A stretch of 42,696 nt of DNA from a bacterium. Its GTDB lineage: Bacteria; Zhuqueibacterota; Zhuqueibacteria; Oceanimicrobiales; Oceanimicrobiaceae. Positions 12,001 through 27,000 of this stretch are shown here, piece by piece. Made by a program: the position numbers. The stretch's first letter is position 1. The number at the start of each line of letters is the position of its first letter. Where the stretch lies: the NCBI GenBank assembly GCA_037446635.1, contig JBBIIG010000001.1, forward strand, positions 1 through 42,696. The letters run 5' to 3'.

Positions 12001-15000
12001 CGGATTTTCCGAAATCAGTGGGCGGCAACATGACCTCGCCATCGATCATGGTTTTATCGCGGTCGGCGTAACTGGCAGCGGAAGGTTCGGAAATCGCCGG
12101 CGCGATGAAGGCATCGGCATCGAACATGGTTTTTTCAGAAGCCGCAGCCATTTTATCATCTACTGACTTAGACTTCTCTGTTGGGAGCTTCAAATTTTGA
12201 AAAATAAAATCGAATTTATGCGCGAAGGTGATGACGTGCAGGTCGCCCAATTTTTCTTTGAATTTCACCGGCGCGCCATCGACGCGGGTGCCGTTACGGC
12301 TGTTTAAATCTTCAACAAAAAAGCAGCCTTCCCCGTCGTCGTAATAGATGCGAGCGTGCTGGCTGGAGATGATGTCGGCATCCAACACGCAATCGTTCGT
12401 TGGGTGCTTGCCGACGGTGGCTTCGTTGTTGATGAGAAATTCCTTGCCGGCGAGCTGGCCGGTTTTGCAGAACAACTTGGCTTGCATCTGATTAGGACTC
12501 CTTCATGTCTAAAAGGTACGCTTACTAAACCTTCAAGGTTTGGTAAACGTCTTTCCATTCTCTCATTGCGCCGCCCCCCTGAACCGCGAAAGTTTGTTCG
12601 GATGAAACTCGTGGCAGGTCACGCAGCTATTGGATGTCAAGCCCGGTTTGTGGCAAGCATGGCAATTGGAAATTTTCGGAATATTCAGAGTCGCGGATTG
12701 ATCGGCCATGGGCGACCCGGGCATGTCGCGCGTGATAGGAATTTCCGTGTGGCAGCCCAGGCACGGTCGAATCAACAAATGCGGCTGATGATTGAATTCC
12801 GCGACGGCGAAAATGCGCTGATTGTGCTGAACGGGTGCCACCCGCCCGCCGGCAACGACGTGGCACAAGGCGCATTTATTTTTCGCTGCGGTTAGAGCCG
12901 CGAGATCTTTGTGCCGAAATCCTCCCAGGTCGCGGAGGTGACAACCGGCGCACTGGTCTTCAAAATCGATATCCTTAAAATGCCTGCCGTCCGATTCGAA
13001 CTGATGACACGACAGGCAGTTTTTTTCAATTTCTTTCATTTTGGAATATTCGGTTGCGTGGTTGATGTGGCTGAAAATCAGGTTGCCGTTGTCCGGGGTT
13101 TGGTTGCGCGCGAAAGCAAATTCCGGGTGGCCGCTGTTGAAGGAACCAAAGTTGTGACAACTTTGACAGCGGGCATCGGGGGCGCTGGTCACCGGCGCGC
13201 GGCGTCCTCGGTGTTCGAGGTGGCAAGCATAACACGGACGCTCATAATCGCTGTATTCCTTTTGCCCTAGGTTCCGGCGTTCGAGGTTGTCGGAGCGGTA
13301 AATGTAATGCGCCGCAAAATCAAAGATGCGGCCGCGGTTGCCGCTGAGGTCGTGGCAGCCGGAACATTTGTCGCTGGCCACGTCGCCAAAACTTTGGTGG
13401 CAGTGGGCGCAGTCTTTTTCCAAATTAGCATGTTGGGAGGAAAGCGGTCCGCTGGAAATCAGGCTGTCGTTGAAGAAAATGGTGTCGGCTAAAAAATAGA
13501 GCGCAAACGCCAGGCACCCCAGCACACCGATGGCGATCATGCGCCGGCGCGTGATAGGGTAGATGTACTGTTTCGAGACCGGCAGCTTCAGCGGACTAAA
13601 AGAGCCTTTGCGGGTATCGTCGGTTTGATTGGGCATAACAAATTTGACTATTTGGCTTTTTGGTCAAGAAGTCTGGAATTTCTTAGCGTCTTCTGTTTGA
13701 CAAGTGCTTCCCTTCAATCTGAACGTAGACGATTCCTACTACGGCGATAATGCCAAGGATGATAAGAGCAATGGCATAGTATGTCATTTTTATTTCACCT
13801 CCGTTGCATCAAGTAGATAACCCAATACGAAAAATAGAGTGGCAACAACAAAACCTCCGACAAACATTATCAGGCTCACATTTTCTGGTCTTGCTAATGG
13901 ACTGATCTCGTTAATTGTAAGAATTATTTTTGCTAAAATCGAAAGAAAATTTGCCCAAATTGTCTTTTTGTTTTTCAGTTTTGATAAGTTGCATAAACTT
14001 GTTCCCGCAACTAATAATACCACACCGCATAAATATGCAACGCGATCAACAGAATCAAAACCAGCGACGCCGGGACGTGCAAATATAGCCACCAGCGCAG
14101 CGCCTTTTGCAGCGTGTAGTGAGCATCCAACTCCAGCTTGGTTTTGTAATAGGATTCTAATTGGTCGAGGCGGGCTTTTTCATCAACGGGCAGTACTTTG
14201 CTCAAATAGTCGAACTGTTTGATTTGAGATTGCACGCCGCCAGTGATATCGAAATAATAGACCAATTTCAATTGCGGACCGCGCAGCGCCGCCGCAATAT
14301 TCTTGCGATAAAATTCCTTCACCGGATCGGTGCAGAATTTCAGCAGCTCTTCGCTGCGCTCGCGAATTTCCTGAATGAGCTCCGGAATGCGCTCGTAAAT
14401 TACCTCCACGGTGAGTCCGGAAGTGAGCAAGCGGGGAATCCACTTCTGCAAAAAGACACCGAAGAGTCCGCTGACCGCCACCCAGATACTCAAAATAAAA
14501 AGCCACCACGTGAGCGTGCCGGTGGGCAGGCGAAAGCCACTGTGCATCAGTACCAGCAGCAGCGACAGTGTGCCAGCATAGACGTGGAATTGTACCCAGG
14601 TTTGCGCGCGGCCAGCGCTGAATTTTTTTGTGTGCCGGGTGATGCGCCGGCGAATTCCGTAAAGTCCGGCGCCGGCCATCAAAACTGCAGCAGCGATGCC
14701 GTAGCTTAATCCCAGCCACGAGCCAGGATTCGCTTCAGAGAAAAGAATATTCAGCAGATAAATGAGCTTGCAAACCCCGGCGGCAATCACAAATCCCCAA
14801 AACCAGCGGGGCGCTTGCACCAGCTTATTGATGCGTTGGATGAACGATTTTATCATTTTTATTTTTAAGTGCAAAAATACGCTGCGCTGATTTTTCCACT
14901 CCCATTCGTGCAATTCGTGGTTTCATCAGATATTCAGCAACGCTTGAAATTCCTCCAAACTTCCTACCCGTACCGCGCAGCCATTGGGACAACTGCGCAC

Positions 15001-24000: not shown

Positions 24001-27000
24001 TTGGAAGAGCCTTCTTTTTCTTTGCCGCAGCCAACTAACACTGTCAGGCAGAACATAATTGCGATCAATAATAGTTTGCCATTGGACATGGTTTTGTCCC
24101 TTTGTTTATTGGAGAGATGAACCTTGAATCCTTCGCAGGGGTTACTTCAACATCAGCAACTTGCGCGTCAGGCGCACTCCGTCGCCGACCAATTGATACA
24201 CGTAAACTCCGCTGGCCACGGATTGCCCGGCCTGATCGCGGCCATCCCACACCGCGGCGTGAAAACCCGCCGGCCGGGTTTCATCAATCAACGTGGCGAT
24301 TTCCTCGCCCAGCAGATTGTAAATTTTCAGCGTTACCCGGCTTTGCTGCGGCAAGCCGAAGCGAATGGTGGTGGTCGGGTTGAACGGGTTGGGGAAATTC
24401 TGCGCTAACTCAAAAGTTGCCGGCAGCGCCGACAAATCGCCGAGCTCGTCGCCGAGAAATTCCCGCGTGCCCACCAGCAGTTTCAACCGTTTTGGATGGC
24501 CTTCGTTGTCGCCGGCAATCATGTAGGAATTCGTCTCCCGCAAATTGGTTTTAATTTTGAGCGCTTCGTCCACGAGATAGATTTCGGGCGCAAAACCTTC
24601 CGAAGGTTTCAAGTCTTCGGAAGGTTGGAAGGTCAACCGCACCGCGTCGCGGATGTTGGTTCTAACTTCGAATTCCCAAATCTCGCCGTCGAGCGGTTCA
24701 GGGCGGACGTCGGTGGTGTAACTCGAAGCGATCTGCCCCCACTCCGGATGGGGAAAATAGACGGAGACGTACTCGCCAATCACCGGCGCTTCGGGGAGAT
24801 CGAATTCGTCCCAGCCGGCGGCGGCGTCCGCGCGCACGGCGGCGAGCGTTTGCGTGTCGCGGGCGTTTTGAATGTGAGCGGAGATGCGAATGGTCCATTC
24901 ATACTCGACATGCGCGAGATTTTCTTTTGGCGCCGAAGCCGTTGCCGAGCCGAGCAGCGGATCGATGAGCAATTGGTCCGCGGCGTTGCGGAAAACGGCG
25001 TAGCCATCGAAGGGTTGGAGAGAGCCGGTGAAGGTGACGAACTCGCCGTTGAAGGCGCGGATGTCGAGGGCTGCACCGCTGCCTAATCGCACTTTGGAAA
25101 GGGGAATGGCGAAGGTGAAGGGGCTGCCCACGAAATTCCAGCCGGCGGTGAGGTTGAAGGCAAACGGGTTGTCGGTGCGGCTGGAGCGGCCGGCGCCGGT
25201 GTCGATGACTTTGCCAGCGGAACGGACAATCAACCAAAAGGCTTTGCCGGGTACAAGGTTGCCGACGTTGGGAAATTCAGCGTAGGATTGGTTGTTGCCA
25301 GCGTCAATTCCACCGGAGGCGTTGGGGCGCAATTCAAAGAAGCGCCACTCGGTGTCGTCGTATGCGCCGAGATCATCCACCAAAACCGCGTTGGCGGATT
25401 TGGCGTCGGCATCGAACGGAATTGAAATCAACCGATAGCCGTTTTGGGCGCTGCCTGCCGGCTGCGCGGTGGATTTCACCACGCCGGGATCGGGGACGGT
25501 GACTTGCACACTGAAAAATCCGGCAGCCGGCTCGCGGTCCGAAAGCCCTCCCAGATCCAGCGCTTCGATGAAATACTCCACGCCGCGATCGGTCACCGAG
25601 GCCGCGGGGATCGTCCCCGAAAACGTGCTGCCGGATTGGGTCATGTTAGCGGAGGAGAAGGCGTTGTCACCGGCGCGGCGGAATTTCAGCGTGGCGGAGT
25701 TGAGGCCGCCGGCGTCCGTAATGGTGGCGCTGATGGTGATATCCTGATTCACCGCCGCGGTGGTGGCGGCGGTGTGAGTGATCATGGGGGGAAGATTCAC
25801 TTCGATCTCGTCCACCGTGGTGGGGACGAATCCACCCAAAAGCGAAAATTGCGCGCTGCTGGCCAGGTTGCCGCTGACGGGCTGACCAAAAATAGAGGCC
25901 ACCAGCGCGAAATTGGCGGATTGCGCCGCGCCGCCGGACGTGCTCTGTTCGGAAGAGGGCAGGGTGGTTTGCGCCGTCGCTTCCGCGAACCCGATCCCCA
26001 AAATTAAAAAGAGGAAGAAATTTATTTTCATTTTTTTACCTTGAATAATATTAAACACTGAAAACACCGAAACCACTGAAGAGCCGTTATTTTTGGTTTT
26101 GAAATATGAACAACACTAATTCTTAGATGCGCCATTTTTATTTTCTCGCTGCCGTTTGGAGCTATTCGGTTTCACCTGCGGCTTCGCCGTGATCGCGTCG
26201 ATGGATTCCGGCAGGCGGGTATTTTTGATCGCCTGCGTCTCCGGCTGGCCAAACAGCTCTGGCTCTAAAAAGTGGTTTTGTTCAGTCGGCGTTTTGGCCT
26301 GCTCGACCGGAATGCGATGCGCCTCGGCAAAGGCGTCTTTGCGAATGCCGGTCACCTGCCACGACACCTCGCCGCCGGGGACGCCGCCAGCAATCTTGAA
26401 TTGCCGGTTAGCCATTTTCTCGGCGATGTAGAGATTCGGCCCGGGCGCGCCAATGGGGGTGAGCTGGTAGCGAAAATCGCGATTGAGCGCCTCGAACCAT
26501 TCCGGCATTTCCACCACCGCCTCACCGTTAGCGTCCAGAGTGACATTGCCGTTGTAAACGTTCATCATGTCCGGACTTTCCACGAAGGAGTGGTTGAGAT
26601 ATTTATTGGCCGGATCGAGCGGGTGGTCGATCTGAAATCCGCCGCCTTGTTTGAAGAGGAAGCCGGTGACGGTAACGCTTCCACTAAAAAAACCAGCCGA
26701 ACCGGTGGAATTGGCGTGCTCAGCAAAAATGGTGGAGAAAGGGTTGGTACTATTGTCGATCCGAAAGAACCCAGCATTGTTTTGACCATTGGTTCTCCCC
26801 ACCACTGCTACTCCTTGACTGGTCGGATTATCCACCTGGAAAAAACCGCCGGTACTGTTAATACTGGCGCCAGTATTGAAGCCTAACACCGCGGTAACTT
26901 GTCCATCTGTAATGCCAGCGAGGGCCGCGGCCTGACTGTTGGGATTATTGGTTTCAAAAAGGCCGGTGTTGCCGAGGCCGATATTAAAAACTTCCAACAC

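What a model noticed while it worked through the whole genome (the two positions that open the first line are those of the whole stretch)
12563..24089. Two paralogous respiratory modules built around an orphan decahaem-LVIVD beta-propeller protein and a cNMP-binding Fe-S [...]
C1 (g00010-g00017) and C2 (g00305-g00309) carry the same gene set. It comprises a membrane-anchored decahaem cytochrome; a signal-less NrfC/DmsB-type 4Fe-4S protein with a cyclic-nucleotide-binding domain (fused to a 3-TM subunit in the C2 copy); a secreted 1163/1350-aa protein with ten CXXCH motifs followed by an LVIVD beta-propeller; a 514/586-aa orphan; and a c554-type cytochrome. An FHA-domain gene flanks both copies, with a PP2C phosphatase beside the C1 copy and a Ser/Thr kinase beside the C2 copy. 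Boldest reading: an undescribed transmembrane respiratory complex. Its periplasmic decahaem-propeller would be the catalytic oxidoreductase for an unknown (mineral, sulfur or nitrogen) subst [...]
Evidence so far: CXXCH positions and TM/signal predictions for all members. Pfam: LVIVD x5-6 (g00015, g00308); cNMP_binding 258-346 + Fer4_11 430-532 (g00013); 253-340 + 424-526 (g00306, 826 aa, with TM at 562, 659, 797); Cytochrome_C554 (g00017, g00307). g00016 and g00309 are paralogues. g00013 residues 394-543 are 32% identical to E. coli DmsB. For g00015 residues 1-760 there are 3513 homologue clusters at E<=1e-3 among 7997 scored. The 120 best are 43-92% identical and 727-1648 aa long. They come from KSB1, Acidobacteriota, Wallbacteria etc. 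and are named 'hypothetical' or 'LVIVD repeat' (one OmpA-like). Most of the ten haem motifs are invariant in a 19-sequence alignment. In the AF2 model the propeller ( [...]
(Added by a program. Inside this text positions count along the whole contig: contig position 1 is position 1 of the stretch shown here. "Call 12" and the like, gene names such as g00115 and contig names such as C1 are that model's own, and its searches are not shown. The text may have been shortened before it was handed on; [...] marks where a part breaks off. The agent that wrote the report below was given it as the finding of a first reader that could run no searches.)

Follow-up and report, generated by a model that had tools for sequence, protein, structure and literature searches.

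The report
Sister of PCC4/Ptd electron conduit
This operon looks built to carry electrons from NAD(P)H across the inner membrane to a ten-haem propeller protein beside a narrow outer-membrane channel; its inner half matches a cluster already named but never tested (PCC4/ptd), while its outer half appears undescribed and has no known substrate.

Summary
The 514-aa 'orphan' is an 18-stranded AlgE-like outer-membrane barrel. The '3-TM subunit' is a five-helix protein with two W-x3-H-x13-H dihaem-b motifs. A FAD reductase with FHA and 2Fe-2S domains (9273-11615) belongs to the system and was left out.

The inner half (tetrahaem, cNMP/4Fe-4S, cytochrome b, decahaem) matches PtdD-G of the published in-silico PCC4/ptd cluster. 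The outer half does not. PtdA pentahaem and PtdB porin are replaced by an ExtM-related decahaem fused to an LVIVD propeller plus the barrel, usually with an HbpS-like protein. Among 22 loci with the closest Fe-S protein, 8 carry this outer module, 8 carry PtdA/B and none carries both.

Four different flavin NAD(P)H modules sit beside the Fe-S protein across lineages, which points to NAD(P)H rather than quinone as the inner terminus. In this clade the cNMP pockets lack the key Arg, and FHA, PP2C and kinase genes appear instead.

Best reading: a regulated, non-respiratory NAD(P)H-to-periplasm reductive chain ending in an unknown enzyme. Substrate and direction are untested. Verdict: new variant of a known, uncharacterised kind.

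The parts
22617..24089 (-). Lipoprotein: SH3 + c554-type tetrahaem + Pro-rich linker + c3-type tetrahaem (8 haem motifs, one CX4CH); PtdD-like shuttle
   Evidence: Pfam; motifs and lipobox LVGC
20969..22513 (-). 18-stranded AlgE/OprD-like outer-membrane beta-barrel (the 'orphan'); no detectable homology to PtdB-like porins
   Evidence: Atlas; AF2 pLDDT 86.3 (strand count read from DSSP); Foldseek AlgE E 1e-17; hhalign vs PtdB-like prob 0.2%
17410..20901 (-). Secreted decahaem (ExtM-related haem domain, residues about 30-735) fused to an LVIVD beta-propeller; candidate terminal enzyme
16917..17360 (-). 147-aa ORF in a lower-GC insert (GC 0.42); no family, no hit in the related loci screened; probably not part of the system
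16610..16828 (-). C-terminal fragment of a C39 peptidase in the same insert; not part of the system
   Evidence: Pfam PF03412 E 9.5e-8
14926..16605 (-). Cytoplasmic protein with two cNMP-fold domains (phosphate-binding Arg absent) and 16 invariant Cys (four 4Fe-4S clusters); PtdE homologue
14011..14913 (-). Five-helix inner-membrane dihaem cytochrome b (H110/H124, H279/H293; two W-x3-H-x13-H and one SGxxG); PCC3/PCC4 IMP, PtdF homologue
12563..13636 (-). Membrane-anchored periplasmic decahaem wire; PtdG homologue
11630..12487 (-). Double FHA-domain protein
9273..11615 (-). YpdA/TrxB-like FAD NAD(P)H oxidoreductase + 2 FHA + 2Fe-2S ferredoxin; inferred electron entry point (functional counterpart of PtdC, different family)
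8448..9254 (-). PP2C phosphatase, last gene of the run
8256..8286 (-). 14-bp hairpin + T-run, likely terminator closing the operon and separating it from the convergent molybdopterin gene
   Evidence: consensus scan only

Best explanation
A regulated trans-inner-membrane electron chain of the PCC4/ptd type, fitted with an alternative outer module. Proposed path: NAD(P)H -> FAD reductase -> 2Fe-2S -> four 4Fe-4S clusters of the cNMP-fold protein -> two b haems across the inner membrane -> anchored decahaem -> c554/c3 lipoprotein -> ten haems of the LVIVD protein, which reduces a small solute admitted through the narrow 18-strand barrel. It would not use quinone and would not conserve energy, so it works like an NADPH oxidase/ferric reductase extended to the outer membrane. 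Most lineages gate it by cyclic nucleotide; this clade probably gates it by Thr phosphorylation. Shown here: the parts, their motifs, co-occurrence, fusions and module swaps. Inferred: cofactor binding, order and direction of transfer, catalysis by the LVIVD protein, regulation. The substrate is unknown; my guess is an N, S or Se oxyanion or chelated iron.
For: Four invariant His in 18 of 18 cytochrome b homologues, in the TM3/TM5 pattern described for ferric-reductase domains (PMC3591440 passages) and the PCC4 IMP. Natural fusions: FeS-cytb (C2; L055) and reductase-cNMP-FeS. Four flavin modules of different architecture adjoin the FeS gene: fused YpdA-like; NuoEF-like (31 of 40 loci of at least 21 kb); separate YpdA-like+FHA+Fer2; FNR-type+Fer2. 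On the same 52 loci, invariant non-Cys/His positions make up 1.3% of the anchored decahaem but 18% of the LVIVD haem domain, 16% of its propeller and 14% of the barrel, and the haem domain keeps 12 invariant His beyond the 10 motifs. The barrel is AlgE-like. Arg of the second cNMP pocket: 32 of 36 fused-reductase loci against 0 of 10 FHA-reductase loci. Adenylate cyclase genes lie in 13 of 131 loci.
Against: No experiment, no expression data and no substrate. No solved fold matches the haem domain, so no catalytic site is identified. High conservation could equally reflect tight protein interfaces. Pfam Ferric_reduct hits only 3 of 18 cytochrome b homologues, weakly (best E 0.003), and such b-type proteins could bind quinone, as He et al. 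proposed. The C2 copy has no reductase beside it. Planctomycete loci showed no BLAST hit to either reductase type. The Arg/FHA correlation rests on related clades, and my motif search missed most NuoEF-type proteins. Direction of flow cannot be read from sequence.
Confidence: 0.5

Rival explanations
1. Porin-cytochrome conduit for extracellular electron transfer linked to the quinone pool (the model He et al. 2017 drew for PCC4); respiratory.
For: Barrel and multihaem genes are adjacent in 59 of 59 well-flanked loci. The same IMP family serves PCC3 with 21-51-haem wires. One barrel homologue carries a fused c3 tetrahaem (P0114). The host genome has many other multihaem genes.
Against: An 18-strand AlgE-like barrel with a long internal loop is smaller than the MtrB-type sheath (26 strands, recalled). 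I saw no extracellular cytochrome among the conserved neighbours. A flavin NAD(P)H module recurs with the FeS protein. Many carriers are sphingomonads and marine Gammaproteobacteria not known to me as metal respirers.
Confidence: 0.2
2. Envelope redox sensing or maintenance apparatus: the propeller and barrel are a scaffold/receptor, and electron flow reports on or repairs the envelope as part of a cAMP or Ser/Thr kinase cascade, with no bulk substrate.
For: Recurring CHASE2 cyclase, FecR, kinase, FHA and PP2C neighbours. HbpS-like protein in 51 of 59 loci; HbpS is recalled as a haem/redox signalling accessory.
Against: 24 or more c haems plus a dedicated NAD(P)H input is heavy for a sensor. 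No transcription factor or output domain is conserved in the loci. The C1-type copy lacks HbpS.
Confidence: 0.17
3. The same chain runs inward: the LVIVD protein oxidises a periplasmic donor and the electrons reduce NAD(P)+.
For: PCC4 was found in Fe(II) oxidisers. Sequence does not give direction.
Against: Needs a very low-potential donor or reverse flow against the membrane potential (inference). TrxB/YpdA-type flavoproteins normally oxidise NADPH (established knowledge).
Confidence: 0.1

Closest known systems
PCC4 (He et al. 2017, PMC5566968) = ptdABCDEFG (Elbon, Stewart & Glass, bioRxiv 10.1101/2023.11.21.568154); both described in silico, function unknown
   Same: Tetrahaem, cNMP/4Fe-4S protein, five-helix IMP with two WX3HX13H and SGXXG, decahaem, an NAD(P)H flavoprotein and a porin-cytochrome pair. 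My profiles hit the inner genes of ptd-ordered loci (FeS 1e-93, cytb 4e-42, decahaem 3e-44).
   Different: The PtdA pentahaem and PtdB porin are replaced by a decahaem-LVIVD protein and an AlgE-like barrel with no detectable homology to them, usually plus an HbpS-like protein. The reductase is YpdA-like with FHA domains rather than FNR-type. The cNMP pockets are degenerate in this clade.
Geobacter ExtHIJKLMNOPQS cluster (PMC5877670)
   Same: The haem domain is ExtM-related: NCBIfam ExtM 5e-30, and all ten motifs align with 18 distant 10-12-haem homologues, seven of which I scored against NCBIfam, where ExtM was the best hit. Both have a small-solute-type porin plus multihaems plus cytochrome b.
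   Different: Far below the ExtM cutoff (104 vs 800 bits). Propeller fusion. No rhodanese, Rieske or ExtKL among the conserved neighbours; NAD(P)H/cNMP inner module instead.
Ferric reductase domain / NOX superfamily (PMC3591440, PMC5676040)
   Same: Four His on TM3/TM5 for two haems across the membrane, coupled to a cytoplasmic FAD/NAD(P)H module with regulatory ligand-binding domains.
   Different: Five helices with a ~115-aa insertion before TM5. Pfam match is marginal. Electrons pass through Fe-S clusters, and the presumed acceptor is a periplasmic multihaem rather than O2 or Fe.
MtrCAB / PCC3
   Same: Barrel gene next to multihaem genes; PCC3 shares the IMP family.
   Different: Small 18-strand barrel, no MtrA/MtrB homology detected, no extracellular giant cytochrome.
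Octahaem tetrathionate reductase (1sp3)
   Different: The score is within background range; there is no Foldseek or sequence support.

Membership tests
PCC4/ptd | Five-TM IMP with two WX3HX13H and SGXXG (PtdF) | tested here: met
   W106-H110-H124, W275-H279-H293, S148-G-L-F-G152 (definition)
PCC4/ptd | cNMP-domain protein with 4Fe-4S clusters (PtdE) upstream of the IMP | tested here: met
PCC4/ptd | Periplasmic decahaem (PtdG) and tetrahaem (PtdD) | tested here: met
   10 CXXCH protein; c554 domain. The window's tetrahaem carries extra SH3 and c3 domains.
PCC4/ptd | Pentahaem with C-terminal beta-sandwich (PtdA) | tested here: not met
   No tblastn hit in the genome; hhalign prob 24% over 31 columns only. 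PtdA was identified by gene order and haem number, since the paper's accession tables could not be seen.
PCC4/ptd | PtdB-family porin | tested here: not met
   No HMM hit at E 0.01; hhalign prob 0.2% against one PtdB-like sequence; no hit in the genome. A shared barrel fold is not excluded.
PCC4/ptd | [quoted passage not shown] | tested here: inconclusive
   Present as a function but of another family: YpdA/TrxB-like here, FNR-type+Fer2 in ptd-ordered loci.
ExtM (NF040943) | Score above the curated cutoff of 800 bits | tested here: not met
   104.3 bits; a true ExtM among my loci scores 927
ExtM-like superfamily | Colinear haem motifs | tested here: met
   All ten CXXCH conserved in at least 94% of 18 distant homologues
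Ferric reductase domain (PF01794) | Four His in TM3 and TM5 | tested here: met
Ferric reductase domain (PF01794) | Pfam profile match | tested here: inconclusive
   3 of 18 members, best E 0.003; the window copy has none
Canonical cAMP-binding domain | GE...R[ST]A phosphate-binding cassette (motif recalled) | tested here: not met
   Window pockets read GEIGALSGWPQS and GDVEMLIEGMSEWQF
AlgE-like 18-strand barrels | Fold | tested here: met
   AF2 model plus Foldseek E 1e-17, TM 0.58/0.70, 14% identity
OTR/HAO-type multihaem enzymes | Fold and open catalytic haem | tested here: inconclusive
MtrAB-type conduits | Cytochrome threaded through the barrel | not testable with these tools
   Only barrel size argues against it; no structure of the complex

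The most novel reading that the evidence does not exclude
The PCC4/ptd inner half is a general NAD(P)H-to-periplasm power line, switched by cAMP or by Thr phosphorylation, onto which bacteria plug exchangeable porin + haem-enzyme heads. The decahaem-LVIVD head is a haem enzyme of unsolved fold that carries out an unrecognised periplasmic reduction in hundreds of ordinary soil and marine species. That would be a bacterial counterpart of a regulated NADPH-oxidase-style reductive burst.
Probability: 0.3. Interest if true: 0.8.

Novelty: new variant of a known kind. Interest (0 to 1): 0.55.

Why it matters
If right, PCC4/ptd-like clusters should not be read as markers of metal respiration or quinone-linked electron transfer, because their inner end is NAD(P)H and their outer end is exchangeable. 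It also offers a confidently modelled 700-residue decahaem domain with no solved relative found here.

Tried and rejected
- Apparent HbpS-barrel fusion in L023: the two genes are joined by a run of Ns, an assembly artefact; rejected.
- PDB sequence searches with the cytochrome b and LVIVD profiles gave nothing useful.
- Complex prediction of barrel 55-514 with LVIVD 630-1163 returned 'no answer'.
- Sequencing-run search: none was listed, so expression was not examined.
- Literature searches for LVIVD+multiheme, cNMP+4Fe-4S+multiheme+porin+FHA (33), porin-cytochrome+alginate export (52), HbpS/GlcG+multiheme (71) and Sphingobium+multiheme (86) found no description of the outer module. They also missed PCC4/ptd, which I reached only through earlier findings. 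The Tenderiales LVIVD protein is a separate orthogroup, not described there as a cytochrome.
- The molybdopterin gene 6241-8247 is convergent, lies beyond a terminator-like hairpin and did not appear among the conserved neighbours; rejected as a partner.
- The careful tree did not finish; only the quick tree is cited.
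Full report
OBSERVATION. The window holds a nine-gene run on the minus strand: c554-type cytochrome (22617-24089), 514-aa protein, 1163-aa decahaem-LVIVD protein, cNMP/Fe-S protein, TM protein, 357-aa decahaem, double-FHA protein, FAD reductase-2xFHA-2Fe-2S protein and PP2C. Gaps are 14-103 bp except two lower-GC inserts of 837 and 374 bp (GC 0.42 and 0.36 against 0.51-0.59 in the genes), and a 14-bp hairpin follows PP2C. A second copy lies on contig C2, 34-55% identical, with the Fe-S and TM genes fused, an HbpS-like gene upstream, a kinase downstream and no reductase. In a quick tree of 62 haem domains the two copies fall in separate supported clades, so they are old paralogues or separate acquisitions.

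THE ORPHAN IS A BARREL. Atlas features point to alginate-export clusters (7 of 30 hits). An AF2 model from 108 sequences has pLDDT 86.3; I count 18 strands from its DSSP string, with a long loop at about 358-415. Foldseek ranks AlgE first (E 1e-17), then OprD-family channels. This is a solute-channel type of barrel. I recall MtrB as 26 strands.

THE TM PROTEIN IS A DIHAEM CYTOCHROME B. H110, H124, H279 and H293 are invariant in 18 of 18 homologues and are the only His conserved at 95% or more across 52 loci. The TM3/TM5 pattern is the one described for ferric-reductase domains (PMC3591440, passages). Pfam support is marginal (3 of 18 members).

THE INNER END IS NAD(P)H. The Fe-S protein has 16 invariant Cys in 15 of 15 sequences and no export signal. 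In Gammaproteobacteria a Pyr_redox domain is fused to it. In many Acidobacteriota a Nuo51-FMN/2Fe-2S gene abuts it (31 of 40 loci of at least 21 kb among the 80 seeded by the Fe-S alignment). In this clade a separate YpdA/TrxB-like protein (closest solved relatives 7a76, 2zbw, 7a7b) carries FHA and 2Fe-2S domains. In ptd-ordered loci it is an FNR-type protein with Fer2. Four solutions to one input suggest that the conserved function is coupling to NAD(P)H. That is inference. Against it, C2 and the Planctomycete loci show no reductase nearby.

REGULATION. Most homologues keep GE...R[ST]A pockets, and 13 of 131 loci hold an adenylate cyclase domain. The window clade lacks the Arg in both pockets. 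For the second pocket (75 segments): Arg in 32 of 36 fused-reductase loci, 0 of 10 FHA-reductase loci, 9 of 25 loci with no reductase seen and 0 of 4 NuoEF loci. The NuoEF figure is unreliable, because the motif search missed most such proteins, and one search shows most of them with RTA. Kin are not independent, so this suggests rather than proves a switch from cAMP to phosphothreonine control.

DISTRIBUTION. A Sphingobium query confirmed 554 of 562. 31 of 167 genomes of the host's phylum match; this tally includes the own genome and two unpublished genomes, G158 and G162. I classified 131 loci, leaving out the two own-genome loci, 28 distant loci and 20 short fragments. Among the 59 of at least 21 kb: barrel 59, HbpS-like 51, decahaem 49, cytochrome b 45, Fe-S 44, c554 41, reductase 29, kinase 11, FHA 5, PP2C 5 (the 10-kb flanks truncate the cluster). 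Sphingobium herbicidovorans pMSHV carries the set beside CHASE2 and metallophosphoesterase genes.

WHAT IS KNOWN. Two earlier scan notes pointed to PCC4 and ptd, and I checked both papers. He et al. 2017 (PMC5566968: passages, section 16, and supplements 1 and 6, of which supplement 6's table gave no text and supplement 1 only PCC3 captions) define PCC4 as a porin, 4-, 5- and 10-haem cytochromes and an IMP with two WX3HX13H and SGXXG, and draw it to the quinone pool. Elbon et al. (bioRxiv 10.1101/2023.11.21.568154, passages; supplements not seen) name ptdABCDEFG and call its function completely unknown. The window's IMP has both motifs.

To test membership I surveyed 401 Pseudomonadota genomes: 33 have the cytochrome b and 10 have the barrel, and those 10 are the ten best cytochrome b scorers. 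I fetched 18 of the 24 weaker matches. Three are in ptd order (L332, L341, and L333, whose contig begins at the porin), four are PCC3-like, three have a fused reductase-FeS-cytb plus decahaem and no recognised outer genes, and eight are other variants. The inner genes of the ptd-ordered loci match my profiles, but their pentahaem and porin do not, and the host genome has no PtdA/B-like hit. Among the 22 loci whose Fe-S protein is at least 45% identical to the window's, 8 have LVIVD/barrel, 8 have PtdA/B-like genes, 6 (four of them under 11 kb) show neither, and none has both. 0 of 5 PtdA/B-bearing MAGs hold the LVIVD gene elsewhere (completeness unknown). The outer module is therefore exchangeable on one inner module. 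My PtdA/PtdB labels rest on gene order, haem number and domains, not on the papers' accessions; the unseen supplements could bear on this.

NOVELTY. The inner half is known in silico. I found no description of the LVIVD/AlgE-like/HbpS outer module, the exchange of outer modules or the four NAD(P)H inputs in the searches. The library lacks most subscription journals, and five of those searches missed PCC4/ptd themselves, so absence from print is weakly shown. Earlier scan notes report the same barrel-decahaem pair in other genomes; they are not independent support.

VERDICT. A real, widespread and testable system: a new variant of the uncharacterised PCC4/ptd kind. The NAD(P)H-linked trans-inner-membrane chain is well supported by anatomy (about 0.8, my estimate). 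The full mechanism, with a catalytic LVIVD head reducing a barrel-admitted solute, is about 0.5. The substrate is unknown. Interest 0.55.

Noticed in passing
window 16606-17409: Lower-GC insert (0.42) splitting the operon, with a family-less 147-aa ORF and the C-terminal part of a C39 peptidase (16610-16828).
   Followed up: partly
window 13637-14010: Second low-GC insert (0.36) between the cytochrome b and decahaem genes, with short hydrophobic ORFs.
   Followed up: partly
G000 contig C20, about 6700-55500: Island with at least 14 multihaem ORFs (3-14 CXXCH), another DmsB-like Fe-S protein and a molybdopterin oxidoreductase.
   Followed up: no
window 6241-8247 (+): 668-aa molybdopterin oxidoreductase whose Fe4S4 domain starts at residue 5, so apparently no signal peptide; convergent on the operon.
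   Followed up: partly
window 24142-42686: Upstream run on the same strand: two Ser/Thr kinases with PEGA domains, TPR and CsgG-like proteins, and large secreted proteins with FlgD/T9SS-type tails. One of these kinases could be the partner of the FHA/PP2C genes.
   Followed up: no
G000 C2:80791-82065 and C2:96847-97329: A cytochrome c-like + DUF5777 barrel gene and a related 160-aa cytochrome c-like gene (32% identical) flank the second copy; no hits to them were counted in the other loci.
   Followed up: partly
P0122; P0114: Fusion variants: an LVIVD protein with 28 haem motifs (18 extra at the N-terminus) and a barrel with an N-terminal c3 tetrahaem.
   Followed up: partly
L055, L057: Myxococcota/Deltaproteobacteria variant: cNMP-FeS-TM fusion with 14-15-haem cytochromes and a distant 1650-aa LVIVD-type protein, with no barrel hit.
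   Followed up: no
window LVIVD residue 235: His here and in all 18 distant ExtM-like homologues but Arg in 33 of 37 family members; possibly a lost distal ligand in most of the family. Alignment-dependent.
   Followed up: no
L342, L344: PCC3-like loci also have a YpdA-like reductase nearby, hinting that PCC3 may be NAD(P)H-linked too.
   Followed up: no
L040:3397-6492: The Planctomycete HbpS-like protein carries an extra matrixin (M10) peptidase domain.
   Followed up: no
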